Under the pieces are notes generated by a model. That model made no database searches, was not told the origin of the DNA, and saw only the letters and a list, made by a program, of their open reading frames with translations. A DNA stretch of 64,000 nucleotides, from positions 24,306,001-24,370,000 of the forward strand of contig NC_087251.1 in assembly GCF_037042905.1 (NCBI RefSeq), given 5' to 3'. The translations under genes and the position numbers were made by a program. The stretch is from Lytechinus pictus. Taxonomy: Eukaryota. Every line of letters starts with the position of its first letter. Position 1 is the stretch's first letter. Below, in pieces: positions 5,345-64,000 of the stretch.

Positions 5345-6168
5345 AGATCAAGTCCACCTCAGGAAAATGCTGACTTGAATAAATAGAGAAAATTCAAACT
5401 TGCATAATGCTGAAAATTTCATCAAAATCGGATGTAGAATAAGAAAGTTTTGAAATTTTAAAGTTTCGCTTATTTTTGACAAAACAGTGATATACACAAC
5501 AAGGTGAGTCAGTCAATGATGTCAATCACTCACTATTTCGTTTGTTTTTTAATTGTTTTAATTATACAATATTTCATTTTCTATAGATTAAGTGATGTAA
5601 GTGATGTAAACTTGTTTGTTCTGTTTGTTTGTTTTTCTTTGTAATATTGATGATATTTTAATTGTATATTTATTTCGTATTATGTATCTTAATTGTATAT
5701 ACATGTAATGTGATTTTAATATGTACGCACGGACGTTCAGAAGAACAGCCATTGGCTAAAGTTCGTTTACCGTGTTGAAATAAAATAAAATAAATGAAAT
5801 GAAATGAAATGAAATAGATTTGACAATAAGGACCAACTTGACTGAACCATATAGTATTAAACAAAGCTAATTCCACATGTTCAGGGAGGAATTAATCGTT
5901 GTATCACTTGACAATGAGGAGAAAATTAGAATATTTCCTATTTCCTATAATAAAATACAAAAGAAATAGTGAGTGGATGACGTCATCAGTCTCCTCATTT
6001 GTATACAGACCAGGATGTGCATATAACTGTTTTTTAAATTAAGCGAAACTTTAAAATGTCATAACTTTCTTATTTTACATCCGATTTTGATGAAATTTTC
6101 AGTGTTATGCTTGTTGATCTTTTTCTCTTTTTATTCAAATCAACTTTTTGTTGGGGTGGACTTGTCCT
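5345..6168. mobile_element. Kolobok-type MITE (TTAA TSD) carrying a nested insertion
   Basis: TTAA|AGATCAAGTCCACC ... GGTGGACTTGTCCT|TTAA. About 125-bp imperfect inverted arms (GAAAATTTCATCAAAATCGGATGTA versus TACATCCGATTTTGATGAAATTTTC). Confidence 0.85.
5590..5813 (+). mobile_element. Probable 5'-truncated non-LTR retroelement 3' end
   Basis: Flanked by ATAGATT (5583-5589 and 5814-5820). Ends in AATAAA plus a (TGAAA)n tail. T-rich 3'UTR-like body. Confidence 0.55.
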
Positions 6169-28933: not shown

Positions 28934-29212
28934 AATAGAATAGTATGCATTATTCATGATAAACAAACCGGCGAATGTGTCAAGCACGAGTGAGCGGCCG
29001 CATGCCTTCCCGAATGACAACAAACACAGAGTAAATTGATCAGCCCAACAGACAACATACTGCAGCATTCAATACAAGGCGGTAACATCCTTCCTATTCC
29101 CGAAGTAAAGGACAACATATTTTTATCATCAATTCTAGGCATTAATAACCATCATCTGATCTCCCATTTCAGGCCATTTTGGGGGAGAATTTGCTGGGAT
29201 TCGGACGTCAAC

Positions 29213-29413
29213 ATGGCACCGCAGACGAGTGATAGTGACAATAATGTATCAGCGGAGGAGATGATGGCTAAAGATTGTGTTTGGATCTTCGGCTATGGCT
29301 CCCTGATATGGCATCCCAACTTTGAATACACGGAGAAAAAGATTGGCTACGTCAAAGGATATGTGACTAGGTTCTGGCAAGGCAGTATATCACATCGAGG
29401 TACACCAGATAAG
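29213..29413 (+). CDS. CHAC1: ChaC-family glutathione-specific gamma-glutamylcyclotransferase (CHAC1-like), coding exon 1
   Basis: ATG at 29213 in context acATGG. Translates MAPQTSD...CVWIFGYGSLIWHPNFEYTEKKIGYVKGYVTRFWQGSISHRGTPDK, containing the ChaC signatures WIFGYGSL and RFWQG..HRG. Ends at donor AAG|GTAGGA (GT at 29414), phase 0. Confidence 0.93.
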
Positions 29414-30889
29414 GTAGGAATTTTCAAGTTGTTTTTCATTGATTTCTTGCAGAATTCCATATGGTATGGAGCAGTCATGGTAGAAACTAAACATGTCACG
29501 TTTCAGAGACATTTCAAGCACTTTCCTTTTAATTCAATCAACATATTATTATAATCAAAGTCTGTGAGGTTCATTCCTCTCCAATATATGTCAAATTAGT
29601 TCGATTAAGGCTGCAGATCTACTTTTAAAATGAATAAAACAATGAGCAATACTAGTATACCAGTAATACTAGTAATGTTTCTATCTCTTTAATGTCAAAG
29701 AATGATAACAACTAGACTATACTAACATAATAAGACAAGTTCGATATAAGATGCAACTTGAGCCTTGAACCAAATATGTTAAAATTATATTTTGTACAGT
29801 GTAGTCATGGCCAGGGCATGCAGGGTCGTCCATCCATGTTTCAGATGGTGGGGGGGGGGGGGGTCAAAATACAGAATTTACATGTGGAGGGCAATGAAAA
29901 ATTAACAACTTTATTTATATGTTCAAGAGTATTTTCGTGCCAAGTTCAATGGTTTTGTAGTGCTTTCCAATGGGTTTTAAAACATATATTTCCATTGTAT
30001 ATTATTAATTTTCAAGTTTTCAGAATTTATGATAGAGGGGCAAATTAATATGTTTTCTCCCCCTAAAAAATAATTTCATGGGGGGCAGTGATTGCTTCAT
30101 TTATTCCTTTACAGTATTGGCTATTCCGCTATGCTCTGGTGGATTCCTGTTTGTTCCTAAAACCATACATTACATATGCATACTCAACCTGTAGGCCTAT
30201 GAGTAATAGTTTGGGTGAATGAAATCCTGCACGCCTCATGAACCCACATTGATCCTCTGAAGTTCCTCCGAAACCTCAGAATTGTGGTTTTTAGACACCA
30301 TCATAGGGAAAGAATGTCATATTCAAGATGATGACATCATGGAAGAAAAAACAGTATTACAATGGATGATATCTCAGAGTAACCAGAGAAATAAGTTAGA
30401 ACATTGTGAGTCATTCAGACAGTTTTTTTTCCAAAGAGTGAAACTAATAGCATAATCTTGACTTCCTCTGGAGGATTAAATGGCTGGAATGATATCAATG
30501 ACTTGTATATCATTTGTGATAATGACCATTAACAGAATGAAACAAAACATGTCAGGACCATTGTTTGATTGTCTTTCAATGGCTCACAATGTGATAACTG
30601 TCATGTTATGGAAAAAAGAATAACTGTGAAATTGCAGTGTTGTAAAACAGTAGGAAAATAATAAAAGAATATGAGTATGAATATAATTCATTATCATTTG
30701 ATTATCATTAATGTCACATGATTAACAGAAAGAAGTTTTACATTTGCGTAGATTGGATCAATTTAGTACTGCAAGAAACACAACATGAAATGTACATTTC
30801 TGATGTTTACAATGTAATCTGTACTGATACATTTTTTGTTGCAACGTAGATATTTATTATGATTTTTTTTCTGTTCTTTTGTTATACAG

Positions 30890-33900: not shown

Positions 33901-34579
33901 TCTAAAGGAATACTCTGATTTTGATTATTTTTTTGTTTTAAATTCTTGAATTTCACAATACTATTGGCACAAGCAGTGTTTCCAAAACATGTTGAATGGG
34001 AAAAGGGTTTGTTTTGTATTATGAATTTAACATAAACATCAATTCACAAACTACACATCGTAATTAAACATAATTGTACAGTATGCGACTTTCTTAACAT
34101 GTAATTCAAAGGAAACTACATGGTCTTATGTGTATATGTATTCTAAAACTTCAAAATCAGAGTCTGATTCATGATTAAAAAAAAGATATTCATACAAAAT
34201 ACATCTCTAATAGATATTAACAAAATACTAATGAACATGTTCAATATTTACAAAAGCATTTAACAAGACGTTATTGAAAGTTAATTAAAACTACTATGTA
34301 TCATTTAATGAATTTAGAGCATCTTCTATTAAGATGAAATATATTTCATTATTTATTTCCTAGCAGTCTCAATGAAAAGAGTATTTTTTTAAATTAATCA
34401 TCGTAACTAGAAATGTCTATGTATTTGAAACCATAATATTTATCCATATGCTTTTAAACTGGGAATTCACAATCCATTGGTTTGGAACATTGATGTGTAC
34501 TGAAACATGGAATTATTTAAGCATAAATGACAATGTTTAAAGAATTTTTTAAAAACCTTTTTTTCTCCTATATTTGCAG

Positions 34580-35101
34580 GGTCAAGCATGGGGTGTGGTG
34601 TTCAAGTTAGAAGGAAGTGAACAGATCACCAAGGCATTCCTACATCTCAACATGCGGGAGTGTCTTCTAGGCTGTTATCAGGTCCAACAAGTTACCTTCA
34701 ACATCGTCGGTGACAAGGACCAGTCCACGGTGCAAGCCATCGCGTTCCGAGCCACACCCGACAACGAGCTCTTTGTTGGACCAGACTCCGTCGAGACTGC
34801 GGCGAGGATTGTCGCATCTTCCTGGGGCAGAACCGGACACAATGCTGAATACTTGTTCCGCCTTGTTGATTTCATGCATAAGACAGTACCCGATGCCAAG
34901 GATAGGTACTTATTTGAACTCGAGAAGCTTACACAGAAGTTTCTAAACTGCAAATGTTCATCAAAGAAAAGTATCTCAAAGACCAGTATACGCCATAAAG
35001 GTTCTAAAGTGATTGCTCCTAGGACCAGAAGGTCAGACCAACTGCAATATTATCACAAGTGTTACCTCAGTGTCTTGCCATTGGACCAAAGTGTTCATTA
35101 A
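34580..35101 (+). CDS. CHAC1: CHAC1-like, coding exon 3 (terminal)
   Basis: Acceptor ttttctcctatatttgCAG (AG 34578-34579). Translates GQAWGVVFKL...HLNMRECLLGCY...SWGRTGHNAEYLFRL...DRYLFELE...stop TAA at 35099-35101. The catalytic RE motif is present. The RE-xx-LG-x-Y spacing resembles CHAC1 rather than CHAC2. Confidence 0.93.
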   Translation, partial: GQAWGVVFKLEGSEQITKAFLHLNMRECLLGCYQVQQVTFNIVGDKDQSTVQAIAFRATPDNELFVGPDSVETAARIVASSWGRTGHNAEYLFRLVDFMHKTVPDAKDRYLFELEKLTQKFLNCKCSSKKSISKTSIRHKGSKVIAPRTRRSDQLQYYHKCYLSVLPLDQSVH

Positions 35102-44388: not shown

Positions 44389-44973
44389 AGGAGAATGAAA
44401 CTCTTGGAGCAAGTTAGCTTTTGTGAATGTAGAAAAATCAAAGAATAAGATCAACAAAAGTTTGAGTAAAATAGGACTAGCAATAGAAGAGTTATGAGCA
44501 TTTAAATGTCGAGATCACTAATGCTATGGAGATCCTCCCATTGGCAATGCGACCAAGATCTATGATGTCACAGATGAACAACTCTCCCCTTTTGGACACT
44601 GAAAATATACCCCAAAACATCTCTTTTTGCTCATTCTAATCATATGACAAAATGATTAATCAATGATATAATGTTGTGAAACCTCTGTACTTGTCCTCTC
44701 ATAAAGAGAACACCTCACCTTGTGATAGACTCTATAAAAGTGAGAATATAAGTGAAATAAGTACTAAAGTAATGAGGGAGTTGTACGTGTGTGACATCAC
44801 AGATCTTGGTCGCATTGCCAATGGGAGGATCTACATGGCATTAGTGATCTCAATATTCAAATGCTCATAACTTTCTTATTATTCATTCAATCTTCCTCAA
44901 ACTTTCAACAATATGTTTCTTTGATTTTTCTCTTTGATATGGATTCAGCTGGTTTCAAGGGTTTCATTCTCCT
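44389..44973. mobile_element. Kolobok-type MITE (TTAA TSD, AGG...CCT ends)
   Basis: TTAA|AGGAGAATGAAA ... TTTCATTCTCCT|TTAA. Long imperfect inverted arms, including GAGATCACTAATGC...GATGTCACA (44511-44572) versus 44789-44851. RR..YY termini with a TTAA TSD fit Kolobok rather than piggyBac. Confidence 0.85.
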
Positions 44974-45244: not shown

Positions 45245-47179
45245 AACAAGTGGAGTGCCTCTGGCAGTCTCACCTGCATCAGGTGATTCAATATAGCAGC
45301 AGTGCTAACTTTGAAAACTACTTTAAAATAATTATTCACAAAAAACACCATTTATATAATGATACAATACTACGTTAATTGACAATAAATGACATTTGAC
45401 CTTGATTATGCGACCCAAGACTTGTCAGTGATACTTGATTACCCCTATATCCACATTTTATACACTATATCTAAAAAAACTTTAAATGTTATGACAGCAA
45501 TCTAATAATTACCTCAAAAATGGCCAAAGTTCAATGACCTTAAATGACCTTTGACTTTGGTCATGTGACCTGAAACTGGCATGAGATGTTAAGTGATACT
45601 TGATTACTCTTATGTCCAAGTTTTATAAACTAGATCCATACACTTTCAGAGTTATGATGGTTATTCAACACATACCCCCAACATGGCCAAAGTCTATTGA
45701 CCTTTGACCTTGATCATGTGACCTTAAATGACCTTTGATCTTGATCATGTGACCTGAAACTCGCACAGCATGTTCAGTGATACTTGATTACTCTTATGTC
45801 CAAGTTTTATAAACTAGATCCATACACTTTCAGAGTTATGATGGTTATTCAACACATACCCCCAACATGGCCAAAGTCTATTGACCTTTGACCTTGACCA
45901 TGTGACCTGAAACTCGCACAGGATGTTCAGTGATACGATCACTCTTATGTCCAATTTTTATGAACTAGACCAATAAACCTTCAAAGTTATGATGGTAATT
46001 CAACAAATACCCCCAACTTGGCCAAAGTTCATTGACCTTAAATGACCTTTGATCTTGATCATGTGACCTGAAACTCGCACAGCATGTTCAGTGATACTTG
46101 ATTACTCTTATGTCCAAGTTTCATGAATCAGATCCATAAACTTTCAAAGTTATGATAGTAATTCAACAGATACCCCCAACTTGGCCAAAGTTCATTGACC
46201 TTAAATGACCTTTGACCTTAGTCATGTGACTTGAAACCCGGGGGGGGGGGGGCACTTCCATTGACGAGTGGATACCATGCCCGACCATGGGGTGTTGAAA
46301 AGAACCCTAAACACATATTTTTCATATTCTGAAAATGCACCCTTTAACAAGTATTGGCGTGTGAAACCCTACCCTTAACAAGTATTGGAAACAAAACGAT
46401 ACTGTATTCCCTGAATTGAACCCCTAAACAAGTACAGCGATATTTCAATTGTTATGTCACGGACGACGTTGGTCGTTGGTTTTACCTTTACCTACATCAT
46501 TGGGTTTAGTACAGCCCCACCTTCCCACACATCGCGCAAATCGTACTCTAAACAAGTAATGTTGACTCTTGGGGCAAAAAGTATATCCTTTATTAAACAT
46601 TTTAGTCTTAATTTTTTATACCCTCGTGAATTTGACCCTTCTAGCGAAAATAGATACCCTTTTTTCATTATTCAAGTGTTTTTGACACCCTTATTATGTT
46701 ACATACGTAATGTGCCCTATCTTGAAAAAGACATCCTTTTTACGTGTTTTTTTGGTCGCGCATAGTATCCACTCGTCAATATCAGTTGCCCCCCGGGCTT
46801 GAAACTCATGCAGGATGTTCAGTAATACTTGATTAACCTTATGTCCAAGTTTCATGAACTAGGTTTATATATTTTCTAAGTTATGATTAAATTTCAAAAA
46901 CTTAACCTTAGGTTAAGATTTTTATGTTGACTCCCCCAACATGGTCTAAGTTCATTGACCCTAAATGACCTTTGACTTTGGTCATGTGACCTAAAACTCA
47001 GGCAGGGTGTTTAGTAATACATGATTAACCTTATGTCTAAGTTTCATGAACTAGGTCCATGTACTTTCTAAGTCATGCTGTCCTTTAAAAAACTTAACCT
47101 TTGGTTAAGATTTGGTGTTGACGCCGCCGCCGTCGGAAAAGCGGCGCCTATAGTCTCACTCTGCTATGCAGGTGAGACA
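45245..47179 (-). mobile_element. Helentron-associated non-autonomous element (HINE; Tsp/pearl/DINE-1-like) with internal ~150-190-bp tandem repeats
   Basis: Subterminal IRs GTCTCACCTGCAT (45267-45279) and ATGCAGGTGAGAC (47166-47178). Partner partial IR GTCTCACTCTGC (47153-47164) with an adjacent (GCC)n microsatellite. Small TGCC-TCT-GGCA hairpin and CTTGTTTT end on the minus strand. TGACCTTTGACCTT-rich core units at 45566, 45750, 45903, 46064, 46227 and 46987. Confidence 0.75.
46237..46797. mobile_element. MITE with CCCGGG termini inserted in a HINE core repeat
   Basis: TIRs CCCGGGGG..GCACTTCCATTGACGAGTGGATACCATG / CATAGTATCCACTCGTCAAT..GTTGCCCCCCGGG. Flanking duplication CTTGAAA(C) at 46230 and 46798 (7-8 bp). 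The host unit resumes exactly after it. Confidence 0.85.
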
Positions 47180-57392: not shown

Positions 57393-59883
57393 TTAAAGTA
57401 GAAAAAATAAATAAACATATACATATATATATATAAATAAAAGAATCTACTCTATTCATTATCTTTTGCAAACAAATCAGTTGTATAGAGCATATACATG
57501 TAGCTTTTCAGGTTCCCCTTCCCTGTTCTCCCTCTTGTTAATATCAATGTCTGTGATCTATCATCTCTTCGCGTGATCCAAATAAGAGATGAATGTTTTC
57601 ATGTTTCAATGACTATCGCATGATACAGCAAATTCCTTTTATGATGAACCTTGAGATTATAAAAGGCTGGATTCATATTATCAAGATTTTGACATGCATT
57701 CATGTTGCCTTGGGGTTTAGGCCTTTCATATTTCCTACTCCTGTCTATGTTCAGTTTGAGAGAAAAGCCCATGACACTGCATCGGAAAAGAAGATGAGCG
57801 TTGAGGGGGGAAGGTGAAGTTGAAGTACCGGGGATCGTGACTGGTTATCCACCGATCGTAATAATGCCATACGAGTCAAGGTGAGAGGGGATATGACGAG
57901 GCACTGAGGCTAATCAATAACCCAGTGTATTGTAATGAATACCAATATGGGATAAACGCAGGCTATAAAGATGGCTACCACTCCAAACAGTGTGGCTCGC
58001 AGGGTCGCCAACGATCTGTTTTTAATTAAAACTATCGGTAACGAATATCGTAAACAAGGTACAAGAAAATGTGTATTTCAAATGAGGGGGGGGGGTGGAA
58101 GGGGAAGATAGTGTATTGCTTCTTCTTGAGGAAGGTTCATGACCTCTACCACTGGCTATAGGAATTAACACATTGATGACTGAATTCTCTCATTTCTAAA
58201 GGCATTGTACAGAGATGACCTGGTTCTCCTATGTGATGGGTTAAGGAAGAGTAAGAAAATAAGACAACATGTACTTGAAGTCTAAGGATTTAAATGAATT
58301 TTGTTGAAAGGATGACAGACACTTTCAGTTGCATTAAATGTAGATTGATTTTTCCATTCAATTAGCAATATTAATATCACTTTAGAAAACATGTCTGTCA
58401 AAATAATACCTTGAACATCATGTCTAAAAATGTTCAGCAAAAATTTTTCAATATATTATCTTAATAAGAAAAAAATCATATCAGGATACAAATGAGTCAG
58501 GGAGAAAAATAAATTCTTAACAAATCTTTCTTGGCATCTGATAAGCTAGCAGCAAGATCCAGTGTAGTGAATTGTTTTGTCTAACGGGATAAGACAAGTA
58601 TTTGAGGCAGACAGCTAGGACCAACTACCTGAGCAAGGTGAGACCATAATTGCTTAACTCGGGAGAAGAGCAGGCATTTTAGGGGTACCAAATAAAACCA
58701 GGGAGAGTCGAGGGCACGTTCTCTTCTGAGTATTCCAAGAAAAACTCAGAAATGTCTCGGGTCACCTACACTTTCCGCCATTCAATATTACCCATTTTCT
58801 TTTTCCATTCTTCACTTAAGAGTATCACTGGCTTGCTGGCGGTTGATTGGTGATGAATGAAATCATTCACAATCTCAGTGCAAATAAAGAAAGGGAGGAA
58901 GAAAAAGGCAGTGATGGGGGTGGGTATGAATGTGTTTGAAGGACCCTTTTGGTAGAAGAAAATAGGAATGAAGACAGAGGTACTATAGAAAAAAAATGGA
59001 AGCCCCCAAAATAAAATTTGAACATCATCTTGAGTCAAGTAGATAAAGTTTAGTTATTACCGACTTATCTAAAGTTGCAACCTGTGAAACTGTGCCCTGA
59101 AGTATTGTAGGGTTAAATAAAAGCAGGAAAATTAGAGAAAAATACCACAAGAAGTGTGACGTAAATCCATCAAAGGATCTAAACATTAAGAATGTAATTT
59201 TTTTTTTTTTTGTAATGCCATTATATGAGCTGCTCCTCTCTTTTTTCAATGGAATATATATTGCTTTCGAAATCACACTCGGAGAGTTCATTGTATCAAA
59301 CTCCTCTCATTACAAAAAATAAACAGATAGAGGTCTATTACAATGATTAATTTTGTTTCCTCTTTGATTATCAGTATGTAAAAACAAAGATAACAGGATA
59401 GTCCTTTCATCTTACCGCTTATTGCTAGATCAAAAAAGGTCAAGATCTGATAATAGATATACCCCAAAGAAGTATTCATAATCAGATCACATTGCCACTC
59501 AATTACATGTTAAAAGTACTTTCACAGCTATCTATGATTGAGCACCATGTTACATGAACAAGTAGAACTCTCATTAAAAACACTAGAAATGTTCTGAATT
59601 GATGTCTTATTTACATGTCCTAAAAATATATCAAATGTTAATGAATAACATTTCTTTTCTGTTATGAATATTGGTAGAGAAGTATGAGGCGCCGAATGTA
59701 CCAATATTATATAGAACAATTATTTGTTATATAATCATTATTTATTAAATAATAACTATTATTTATATATAATTTACATTTTATTTGTAAATAACTACTA
59801 TTATATAAAATATCATTTCTAATTATTTATATATAATTCCAAGTAATACTTCATTATTTGTAAATAATAATAGTTCGACATTC

Positions 59884-60179
59884 CATTATTTATAAATAAT
59901 GATTATTTGTTTTTCATTATTTATAAATAATGATTATTTGTTTTTCATTATTTATAAATAATGATTACTTGTTTTTCATTATTTACAAATAATGATTATT
60001 TGTTTTTCATTATTTATAAATAATGATTATTTGTTTTTCATTATTTATAAATAATGATTATTTGTTTTTCATTATTTATAAATAATGATTATTTGTTTTT
60101 CATTATTTACAAATAATGATTATTTGTTTTTCATTATTTATAAATAATGATTATTTGTTTTTCATTATTTATAAATAAT
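59884..60179. repeat. 31-bp tandem repeat (9 full copies plus a partial) in the left foldback arm
   Basis: Unit CATTATTTATAAATAATGATTATTTGTTTTT starting at 59884, 59915, 59946 ... 60163. Contains the perfect 18-bp palindrome CATTATTTATAAATAATG. Confidence 0.95.
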
Positions 60180-60410
60180 TTGTTGAGTTTTCCATTATTT
60201 ATAAATAATGATTATTTGTTAAATAATGAAAACGTCTACTTCATTATTTATAAATAATCATTATTTAATGTTCGAGTTTTCCATTATTTATAAATAAAGA
60301 TTATTTGTTAAATAATGAAATATCTACTTCATTATTTATAAATAATAATTTTGTTTCAATATCCCATTATTTATAAATAATCATTATTTATAAACAATTT
60401 TTACAGTTTG

Positions 60411-60490
60411 CCATTATTTATTAAATAATGCCATTATTTATTAAATAATGCCATTATTTATTAAATAATGCCATTATTTATTAAATAATG
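60411..60490. repeat. 20-bp tandem repeat x4 in the left foldback arm
   Basis: CCATTATTTATTAAATAATG four times; mirrored at 62738-62817. Confidence 0.95.
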
Positions 60491-61195
60491 GAAAACTCGC
60501 TATAACATGCAAATGTGGGACCGCCCATGATATGAATATTCATGATGCGATTTCCTTTTTCGTGATTTTTCTTCACAAATTTTTGTCCATTTCCTCTTCA
60601 TAATGACATTTCTTGAGGCAATTTTCTAGGGATATGGTCTGATTGTAATATTCTTCATTTTCTATATAACTTCGTCTTCGTAGAAATATCAAAAAGTGTA
60701 ATTTTATACGATTTTTCCTACAGTTCACAACCCCCATAGGCGCGCGTGTACTGTAGGGACAACCGGTGAATCGACGGAGTGCTCTTCATCGAAATACTAC
60801 GTTGGTTGGTCCCCGGAAGTGGCGGGCGGAATTTAGCCCGAATCCTCGATGGAAGTCGATCAAGTGCATATGAGCTGAGAGAGTGAAATATCAGTGTACT
60901 TGTACAGGCCCTTCTACTTTTTATAAATATTTCTTGTTGCTTTTTTTTAAGTTAATTTTTCCTGGTGTAGAGATAAGTTTCAGTTCTAATAATGCACTTC
61001 AAATACATTTTGGAGTGTCTGTTTGAGGCGTTTGGGGCGATTTCACCCTGGCCCCAAAATGCTCGCAACGACAATACGGGGGCATGATGACCCCTAAATT
61101 TTAAAAAACTTATTTTTCTATTGAAAATTATCACAAAATTCACCAAAAGTGTGCACGAAAGCCTTCGTATTTCACTTTTAAAACTCCAAAAAGTG

Positions 61196-62032
61196 CCCAA
61201 ATGACAAGCTTGGTCGCTTCGCTGTGTCGCTTTCAACTTTAGAACGTTTACGCGTCTGCTTCCCCCCCCCCCTCCTCCGAAAGAAATTCTGTATACGGCC
61301 ATGCTCTAAAGAGCCTGGCACATTGATTTATGTATACTTCCATTTTCATTATTTTTATCTCATTATCAACATGGCCTTACGCATAATTTTTTCCAGGGGG
61401 GCCGGGGCCGGAGCATGACGCGCGTAAACTTTCTCAAAAAAATCTTGAAAGCGAGACAGCCACGGGACCAAGCCCAAATGACAAGCTTGGTCGCTTCGCT
61501 GTCTCGCTTTCAACTTGAGAACGTTTACGCGCGTCTGCCCCCACCCCCCGAAAGAAATTCTGTGAACGGCCATGCTCAAAAGAGCATATGGCACATTGAT
61601 TTATATGTACTTTTCATTTTCATTATTTTTATCACATTATCATCATGGCCTTACACAGAATTTTTACCGGGGGGGGGGGGGGGGAGCAGCTAGGACGCGC
61701 GTAAACTTTCTCATAAAAATCTTGAAAAAGCGAAGCGACCAAGCTTGTCATTTGAGCTTGGTCGCGTCGCTGTCTCGCTTTCAAGATTTTTTTGAGAAAG
61801 TTTACGCGCGTCATGCTCCGGCCCCGGCCCCCCTGGAAAAAATTATGCGTAAGGCCATGTTGATAATGAGATAAAAATAATGAAAATGGAAGTATACATA
61901 AATCAATGTGCCAGGCTCTTTAGAGCATGGCCGTATACAGAATTTCTTTCGGAGGAGGGGGGGGGGAAGCAGACGCGTAAACGTTCTAAAGTTGAAAGCG
62001 ACACAGCGAAGCGACCAAGCTTGTCATTTGGG
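61196..62032. repeat. Three copies of a ~277-bp internally palindromic unit forming the foldback core
   Basis: CCCAAATGACAAGCTTGGTCGCTTCGCTG starts at 61196 and at 61473 (direct, diverged). The third copy is inverted at about 61756-62032. Confidence 0.85.
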
Positions 62033-63048
62033 CACTTTTTGGAGTTTTAAAAGTGAAATACGAAGGCTTTCGTGCACACTTTTGGTGAATTTTGTGATAA
62101 TTTTCAATAGAAAAATAAGTTTTTTAAAATTTAGGGGTCATCATGCCCCCGTATTGTCGTTGCGAGCATTTTGGGGCCAGGGTGAAATCGCCCCAAACGC
62201 CTCAAACAGACACTCCAAAATGTATTTGAAGTGCATTATTAGAACTGAAACTTATCTCTACACCAGGAAAAATTAACTTAAAAAAAAGCAACAAGAAATA
62301 TTTATAAAAAGTAGAAGGGCCTGTACAAGTACACTGATATTTCACTCTCTCAGCTCATATGCACTTGATCGACTTCCATCGAGGATTCGGGCTAAATTCC
62401 GCCCGCCACTTCCGGGGACCAACCAACGTAGTATTTCGATGAAGAGCACTCCGTCGATTCACCGGTTGTCCCTACAGTACACGCGCGCCTATGGGGGTTG
62501 TGAACTGTAGGAAAAATCGTATAAAATTACACTTTTTGATATTTCTACGAAGACGAAGTTATATAGAAAATGAAGAATATTACAATCAGACCATATCCCT
62601 AGAAAATTGCCTCAAGAAATGTCATTATGAAGAGGAAATGGACAAAAATTTGTGAAGAAAAATCACGAAAAAGGAAATCGCATCATGAATATTCATATCA
62701 TGGGCGGTCCCACATTTGCATGTTATAGCGAGTTTTCCATTATTTAATAAATAATGGCATTATTTAATAAATAATGGCATTATTTAATAAATAATGGCAT
62801 TATTTAATAAATAATGGCAAACTGTAAAAATTGTTTATAAATAATGATTATTTATAAATAATGGGATATTGAAACAAAATTATTATTTATAAATAATGAA
62901 GTAGATATTTCATTATTTAACAAATAATCTTTATTTATAAATAATGGAAAACTCGAACATTAAATAATGATTATTTATAAATAATGAAGTAGACGTTTTC
63001 ATTATTTAACAAATAATCATTATTTATAAATAATGGAAAACTCAACAA

Positions 63049-63344
63049 ATTATTTATAAATAATGAAAAACAAATAATCATTATTTATAAATAATGAAAA
63101 ACAAATAATCATTATTTGTAAATAATGAAAAACAAATAATCATTATTTATAAATAATGAAAAACAAATAATCATTATTTATAAATAATGAAAAACAAATA
63201 ATCATTATTTATAAATAATGAAAAACAAATAATCATTATTTGTAAATAATGAAAAACAAGTAATCATTATTTATAAATAATGAAAAACAAATAATCATTA
63301 TTTATAAATAATGAAAAACAAATAATCATTATTTATAAATAATG
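63049..63344. repeat. 31-bp tandem repeat, inverted copy in the right foldback arm
   Basis: Reverse complement of 59884-60179, including the same variant units. Confidence 0.95.
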
Positions 63345-64000
63345 GAATGTCGAACTATTATTATTTACAAATAATGAAGTATTACTTGGAATTATATATA
63401 AATAATTAGAAATGATATTTTATATAATAGTAGTTATTTACAAATAAAATGTAAATTATATATAAATAATAGTTATTATTTAATAAATAATGATTATATA
63501 ACAAATAATTGTTCTATATAATATTGGTACATTCGGCGCCTCATAGAGAAGTGAATGTCTATATCTGTTTGTGCTAATGATGAAAAACTCCACATGAAAT
63601 AGATTTTACATACTTTGGACAATTTATATCTTATGATTTGATAGAGATTATATCAACTTACCAAATGCAGATATGCCACGTATGATCGATAAAAAATCCT
63701 CTAGAATTTGTCCTCTTGAAACAAAAAGGGTGGCTATATTGGCCAAAATATTATGTAAGGATTTTTTAAAATCATTAACCGGAAAGTGTCGTTCCGGTAA
63801 AATAAAAATGACCATCTAAAGACACACCCAATGTTGTCTGTTATTTTCATCACAGGCTTCATAGGTACATGAATACCGGTAGTGTAACAAAACAAAACTA
63901 ATTAACTTTGACGAGTGACAGGAGGAGATGTTACAGATCTTCAATGTGAATACCATTTCTTGGATTGTAACCGACCCCTCCCTCTTCATCACAGTTGGCT

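What the first reader, a model, noticed from the sequence alone, without database searches (positions are those of the whole stretch)
59684..63544. 3.86-kb giant near-perfect palindrome: an apparently very young foldback transposon with an 8-bp TSD
Seen: 1817-bp and 1816-bp arms are reverse complements around a 228-bp spacer. The only differences I found by eye are one poly-C/G length change (about 61262) and three substitutions at the inner end (61461-61474). The element is bounded by AGAGAAGT on both sides. Known: long modular IRs with a repetitive outer domain and a unique inner domain define foldback elements (sea urchin TU, Drosophila FB); TU insertions have an 8-bp duplication. Inference: this is a recently mobile non-autonomous family whose ATGAGGCGCC termini I cannot assign to a superfamily. 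It could extrude cruciforms and its partner transposase is unknown.
Basis: partly seen in the sequence, partly recalled or inferred. Interest (0 to 1): 0.8.

Follow-up and report, generated by a model that had tools for sequence, protein, structure and literature searches.

The report
Young foldback transposon with IS3EU-type ends
This is a real 3.9-kb, gene-less piece of jumping DNA built as an almost perfect mirror image of itself and missing from the same spot in other samples; its true ends and 6-base landing scar show it is likely moved by an enzyme of the little-studied IS3EU transposon group, making it a tidy variant of long-known foldback elements.

Summary
The palindrome is real: the arms differ by one C-run indel and three substitutions at the inner end. 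The boundary needs correcting. Contigs of other copies leave the element after ...CTCATA (63545), none listed at 63544 (mirror at 59683). So the element is 59683-63545 (3863 bp), with TA..TA ends and a 6-bp TSD, GAGAAG, not an 8-bp one. That is the IS3EU/GingerRoot signature (PMC10045372). An empty site was found: one contig of run X14 joins both flanks with the shared 9 letters present once. The 228-bp 'spacer' is a decayed palindrome, the second of two ~280-bp core units; a mirror copy of the first was likely copied onto the other arm by template switching. No element ORF matched Pfam and no partner transposase was found here. This scan already noted similar 3.9-4.4-kb IS3EU-ended foldbacks at eight other places in the same genome (unchecked notes). 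Verdict: new variant of a known kind, modest interest.

The parts
59677..59682 (+). left target-site duplication GAGAAG (6 bp)
   Evidence: shared letters present once in the empty-site contig
59683..61500 (+). left arm (1818 bp), begins TATGAGGCGCC
   Evidence: loose ends of other copies pile at 59683
59850..60220 (+). outer domain: 12 copies of a 31-bp unit around the 18-bp palindrome CATTATTTATAAATAATG; candidate transposase-binding array (inferred)
   Evidence: 16 core matches listed in 59683-60500; 38 matches of the 16-bp core in the element and 0 elsewhere in the window
60161..60490 (+). degenerate 89-bp units and four 20-bp units carrying the same core
60491..61197 (+). non-repetitive inner domain; no Pfam or Rfam family; CpG-rich at 60683-60882 (15 CpG, o/e 1.32 against 0.60 in the window upstream of the element)
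61198..61474 (+). core unit U1: decayed palindrome lacking the last 9 bases of its right end
61755..62030 (-). inverted copy of U1 with the same truncation point (273 of 277 columns identical)
61729..63545 (-). right arm (1817 bp), ends GGCGCCTCATA
   Evidence: loose ends pile at 63545
63546..63551 (+). right target-site duplication GAGAAG

Best explanation
This is a gene-less, multi-copy foldback DNA element of 3863 bp with TA..TA ends and a 6-bp target duplication, absent from this site in other samples, and likely cut and pasted by an IS3EU/GingerRoot-type DDE transposase encoded elsewhere in the genome. Shown: ends, TSD length, empty site, multi-copy termini, no Pfam match in its ORFs. Inferred: the enzyme binds the terminal TATGAG and probably the array of 18-bp palindromes, and makes a 6-bp staggered cut with a preference for G or C at the first target base. 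Also inferred: the near-perfect symmetry was built by copying. An older element with a decayed hairpin core first duplicated that core in tandem (U1-U2). Repair of a break in the right arm then used the left arm as template, copied through U1 and the U1/U2 junction, and rejoined in the 26-bp inverted ends of U2. This gave L-U1-U2-U1'-R.
For: Ends: the listed loose ends at the right terminus lie at 63545 or further out in X3 (12, 9, 2 contigs), X4 (14, 5, 4) and X7 (11, 4, 5, 2), and none is listed at 63544. 97 rows were not shown, but the smallest shown rows hold 1-2 contigs. mirrors this (X3: 18 at 59683, 5 at 59682; an X2 contig starts at 59683). An 8-bp model would need T at the seventh flank base in every copy; it is T in 1 of 11 multi-contig consensus rows at or beyond 63545 (read). 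Empty site: an X14 contig of 2221 nt (minus strand, depth 2.7) covers 59223-59683 at record 1750-2210 and 63544-64000 at record 1302-1758. The overlap is 9 letters, with 5 differences in 918 aligned letters; the 3869-bp insert equals 3863+6. An X3 contig (1801 nt) also holds both flanks, only 20 letters apart. Superfamily: complete IS3EU families always have TA..TA termini and usually 6-bp TSDs (PMC10045372 section 3.3); GingerRoot has 6-bp TSDs and TA..TA in 72 of 77 elements, with GC-rich targets (PMC6839031); fungal IS3EU end TAYGG..CCRTA (PMC12730594). Copying: both arms carry the same truncated U1 end, and the arms are 100% identical over 1777 bp while U1 and U2 are about 90% alike.
Against: The superfamily call therefore rests on ends and TSD alone. 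Published GingerRoot TIRs are 100-150 bp, far shorter than here, and the fourth base differs from the fungal TAYGG motif. No contig joins a flank of this site to the element, so the filled allele rests on the window's assembly alone. That the X14 and X3 records are the same contigs in both calls is inferred from equal length, depth and strand. The empty site by itself fits both the 6-bp and the 8-bp reading. X1 and X2 hold termini identical to this copy over 163 bp, so arm identity may be inherited from a young founder and need not reflect ongoing copying. The insides of other copies were not seen.
Confidence: 0.78

Rival explanations
1. Same element, but moved by a transposase outside IS3EU/GingerRoot that also makes 6-bp TSDs at TA ends (an unclassified group).
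For: No partner enzyme was found; TIR length is far beyond published GingerRoot TIRs.
Against: TA..TA plus 6 bp is the stated IS3EU/GingerRoot signature. The other 6-bp group named there, Polinton, has AG ends. Unchecked scan notes report coding IS3EU elements in this genome.
Confidence: 0.13
2. One reading: element 59684-63544 with ATG..CAT ends and an 8-bp TSD (TU-, hAT-, P-, Merlin- or Zisupton-like; those family names are recalled).
For: AGAGAAGT stands on both sides and the empty-site arithmetic fits 3861+8 as well. Three single-contig flanks printed (one X1, two X14) also happen to fit an A......T frame.
Against: None of the listed loose ends stops at 63544 or 59684. The seventh flank base is T in only 1 of 11 multi-contig consensus rows.
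Confidence: 0.04
3. Assembly artefact: a fold-back chimeric read or polishing created the palindrome, or made its arms identical.
For: No independent record spans the filled site; the one indel lies in a homopolymer.
Against: The flanks differ on the two sides and are adjacent in X14 and X3. A target duplication was gained, and the ends match a multi-copy family exactly. The centre is asymmetric and the arms differ at three substitutions.
Confidence: 0.03
4. For the origin of the symmetry only: the palindrome arose by recombination or fusion between two separate copies in opposite orientation, not by template switching within one element.
For: Three substitutions cluster in 14 bp at the U1/U2 junction, which could mark a join between two variants. 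Chimeric Galileo copies from ectopic recombination are described (PMC2775673).
Against: Both arms share the same U1 truncation and have 0 substitutions over 1777 bp. This needs copying, or two nearly identical parents that already had the junction.
Confidence: 0.2

Closest known systems
IS3EU / GingerRoot superfamily (PMC10045372 passages, section 3.3 and a supplement search; PMC6839031 and PMC12730594 passages)
   Same: TA..TA termini, TAT start, 6-bp TSD; G/C bias at the first target base here, GC-rich TSDs in GingerRoot
   Different: No transposase; arms of 1.8 kb against TIRs of 100-150 bp in GingerRoot; tandem arrays in the arms
Foldback elements: Tetris of Drosophila virilis (PMC4079207, passages), with Drosophila FB and sea-urchin TU elements (TU paper seen only as a citation there; TU details recalled)
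   Same: Long modular TIRs with a tandem-repeat outer domain and an inner domain, a non-coding middle, non-autonomous; Tetris TIRs reach 1735 bp
   Different: Tetris has 8-10-bp TSDs and is assigned to Mutator; here the TSD is 6 bp and the middle is only a decayed hairpin
Galileo/Newton foldback-like P-superfamily elements (PMC2775673, passages)
   Same: Long internally repetitive TIRs; arms >99% identical within a copy but ~7% apart between copies, a precedent for arm homogenisation
   Different: P superfamily, 7-bp TSD, TIRs up to 1.2 kb with a distinct middle segment

Membership tests
IS3EU/GingerRoot | TA..TA termini | tested here: met
   TATGAG..CTCATA; ends fixed by loose-end pile-up at 59683 and 63545
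IS3EU/GingerRoot | 6-bp TSD | tested here: met
   GAGAAG on both sides, once at the empty site. Only this copy's TSD was seen on both sides.
IS3EU/GingerRoot | IS3/integrase-like DDE transposase, in the element or in a partner with the same ends | not testable with these tools
   0 of 12 element ORFs tested match Pfam (the right arm repeats the left); no genome held
Foldback elements (structural class) | Long TIRs with a tandem-repeat outer domain and a non-repetitive inner domain | tested here: met
Foldback elements (structural class) | Non-coding middle; mobile, with TSD and empty site | tested here: met
   family ends give 6 bp
Sea-urchin TU elements | Sequence similarity to the TU outer and inner domains | not testable with these tools
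   no TU sequence or describing paper was found
Mutator-type foldbacks (Tetris) | 8-10-bp TSD | tested here: not met

The most novel reading that the evidence does not exclude
A recently active family of giant foldback elements runs on an IS3EU transposase, adding IS3EU to Mutator and P as engines of foldbacks. It rebuilds its own symmetry by arm-to-arm template switching and leaves older decayed hairpins at its centre. The classical sea-urchin TU elements may be the same kind, with their 8-bp duplication misread in the same way. Its ends and 18-bp palindrome array would be a ready substrate for biochemical study of IS3EU.
Probability: 0.4. Interest if true: 0.55.

Novelty: new variant of a known kind. 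Interest (0 to 1): 0.35.

Why it matters
IS3EU/GingerRoot is known from few families (45 in Repbase in 2022, PMC10045372). I found no paper tying it to foldback elements: 'IS3EU'+'foldback' gave 1 paper with unrelated mentions, and 'IS3EU'+'sea urchin' gave 2 genome reports seen only as listings. Repbase and subscription papers were not searchable. A young, insertion-polymorphic family with defined ends offers a substrate for that enzyme and a natural case of how long palindromes stay symmetric. It is still one copy of a kind that this scan has noted many times in this genome.

Tried and rejected
No whole genome was held, so there is no copy count or partner search. A blastn of the inner part against the window found no second copy, and the 11-base terminus occurs only at the two ends. 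Exact-pattern scans found nothing: metagenome contigs twice and genome contigs once. Rfam gave 5 microRNA-precursor hits, all far below their gathering scores, taken as hairpin chance. Pfam: 0 of 12 element ORFs matched. Look-ups of earlier findings by sequence, relatives and nearness were blank. Paper searches for TU elements gave nothing usable; the hits of the editing search were seen as a listing only. 4-bp and 10-bp boundary readings were rejected: the 4-bp ends are not complementary and the 10-bp TSDs mismatch. The two probabilities printed for loose ends and for the A>G skew are not used: contigs of different runs share insertion sites, and the A>G count mixes flank and element sites. 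Summed contig depth (X3: thousands on the terminus against 73.6 on the flank) is not taken as a copy number. 7 of the 24 listed runs were laid... in fact 6 (X1, X2, X3, X4, X7, X14); the other 18 were not examined. Supplements of bioRxiv papers were closed and one supplement store gave no answer; IS3EU end sequences there could bear on the assignment.

Full report
Observation. The inverted repeat is real. The repeat finder gives arms 59683-61271 / 61957-63545 at 100% and 61263-61505 / 61724-61966 at 98%. A global alignment lists one C-run indel at 61262 and substitutions at 61461, 61465 and 61474; continuous pairing ends at 61500/61729. The outer 1777 aligned bases have no substitution.

Boundary. 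The sequence allows two readings: ATG..CAT ends with an 8-bp TSD, or TAT..ATA ends with a 6-bp TSD, GAGAAG. No genome was held, so I used contigs of public runs (6 of 24 listed runs laid). At the right end, contigs of other copies leave the reference after 63545, 63546 or 63547 in X3 (12, 9, 2) and X4 (14, 5, 4), and after 63545, 63546, 63547 or 63550 in X7 (11, 4, 5, 2). No row is listed at 63544; 97 weaker rows are hidden. At the left end X3 has 18 loose ends at 59683 and 5 at 59682, and an X2 contig starts at 59683. Both arms are alike, so an 8-bp model would force every TSD to begin with A and end with T. The corresponding seventh flank base is T in 1 of 11 multi-contig consensus rows (read; agreement 0.44-0.85). 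Against this, three single-contig flanks do fit an A......T frame. The three runs may share insertion sites and are not independent. The element is 59683-63545, 3863 bp. The first flank base is G in 11 of 23, 9 of 23 and 11 of 22 ends, against about 18% G expected from the window's 36% GC, and the sixth base is C in 7 of 11 rows. This suggests a symmetric G....C target preference (inference).

Mobility and age. An X14 contig of 2221 nt aligns to the left flank at record 1750-2210 with 1 difference and to the right flank at record 1302-1758 with 4 differences. The 9-letter overlap is the shared TAGAGAAGT, present once, and the missing 3869 bp equal element plus 6. I predicted these coordinates. 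An X3 contig of 1801 nt also holds both flanks (55 and 24 other letters; 15 and 6 gaps). Its pieces are 20 letters apart where 36 are expected, so that site is empty but locally changed. Record identity across the two calls is inferred from length, depth and strand. X1 and X2 hold the terminal 163 bp with no difference. The insertion is therefore young and absent from a haplotype about 0.5% from the window. No record spans the filled site.

Anatomy. Each arm has a ~165-bp terminal segment, twelve 31-bp units, degenerate 89-bp units and four 20-bp units, all built on the palindrome CATTATTTATAAATAATG. Its 16-bp core matches 38 times in the element and never elsewhere in the window. A 0.7-kb inner domain follows, with a CpG-rich patch and no Pfam or Rfam match. 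The centre reads U1 (61198-61474), U2 (61475-61754), inverted U1 (61755-62030). U1 and U2 are tandem and about 90% alike in aligned columns. Each is a decayed palindrome (0 of 500 shuffles reach either score; U2 folds at z -15.3). Both U1 copies lack the same 9 terminal bases.

Mechanism. Shown: ends, TSD, empty site, many termini, no Pfam-matching ORF. Inferred (0.8): cut-and-paste in trans by an IS3EU/GingerRoot DDE enzyme, because TA..TA plus 6 bp is that group's stated signature (PMC10045372 section 3.3; PMC6839031 passages; PMC12730594 passages). Inferred (0.5): the 18-bp palindromes are binding sites for the enzyme. Inferred (0.65): an ancestor with a decayed hairpin core duplicated it in tandem, and later one arm was resynthesised from the other through U1 and the junction, rejoining within the 26-bp inverted ends of U2. 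The shared breakpoint argues for copying. At 61461 and 61465 the right arm agrees with U2's intact end and the left arm does not, so the left patch changed afterwards or came from a variant copy. Whether copying is recurrent or happened once in the founder is open. Galileo arms, >99% alike within a copy and ~7% apart between copies, are a precedent (PMC2775673 passages).

Comparison. It works like a foldback element (Tetris, PMC4079207 passages) and meets that structural definition. It fails the 8-10-bp TSD of Mutator-type foldbacks and the 8-bp TSD attributed to TU elements (recalled; the TU papers were not seen). It meets two of three IS3EU features; the third, the enzyme, could not be tested. 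That the host is a sea urchin comes from earlier scan notes and was not checked here.

Earlier notes. I had framed the 6-bp/IS3EU alternative at 50:50 before opening them. Eight notes describe 3.9-4.4-kb IS3EU-ended foldbacks elsewhere in this genome. I could not compare sequences, so family identity is likely but untested. Their claims of several hundred copies, a helper element and RNA editing are unverified. In X14 the six changes shown inside the terminus are all A>G (mirrored as six T>C), two of them absent from X3, X4 and X7. But X14 is not on record as RNA, the changes have one polarity only, and subfamily variation is not excluded, so this is a weak hint.

Verdict. A real, young, non-autonomous foldback transposon with IS3EU-type ends; new variant of a known kind; interest 0.35.

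Noticed in passing
window 29018-29551 and 34553-35098 (+): Two ORFs match Pfam ChaC (profile positions 1-48 and 57-174; E 2e-18 and 4e-27), apparently two exons of a ChaC-like gene about 24.6 kb upstream of the element.
   Followed up: no
run X14, 818-nt contig at window 59697-59744: After about 60 bp of terminus the contig runs straight into a second terminus (..GGCGCCTCATA) and then flank, suggesting a miniature derivative of about 75 bp with both ends.
   Followed up: no
runs X3 and X4, loose ends at 59697 and 63531: Consensus rows point to a sister family ending TATGAGAC.. instead of TATGAGGC..
   Followed up: no
run X14, window 63482-63507: Six A>G changes in the terminus, a weak hint of A-to-I editing if the run is RNA; one polarity only.
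   Followed up: partly
window 60683-60882 and its mirror near 62350-62550: CpG-rich patch with CCGGAAGTG and GGGCGG motifs (ETS- and Sp1-like, recalled); possibly a relic promoter of the autonomous parent, present in both arms.
   Followed up: no
window 44431-44931 and 5397-6115: Two older related inverted-repeat elements (81% and 90% complementary arms), MITE-like.
   Followed up: no
window 45390-47125: Cluster of 163-184-bp repeats starting TGACCTTTGACCTTG.
   Followed up: no
run X7, window 63597: A contig leaves the right flank about 50 bp from the site into unrelated sequence, perhaps another insertion.
   Followed up: no
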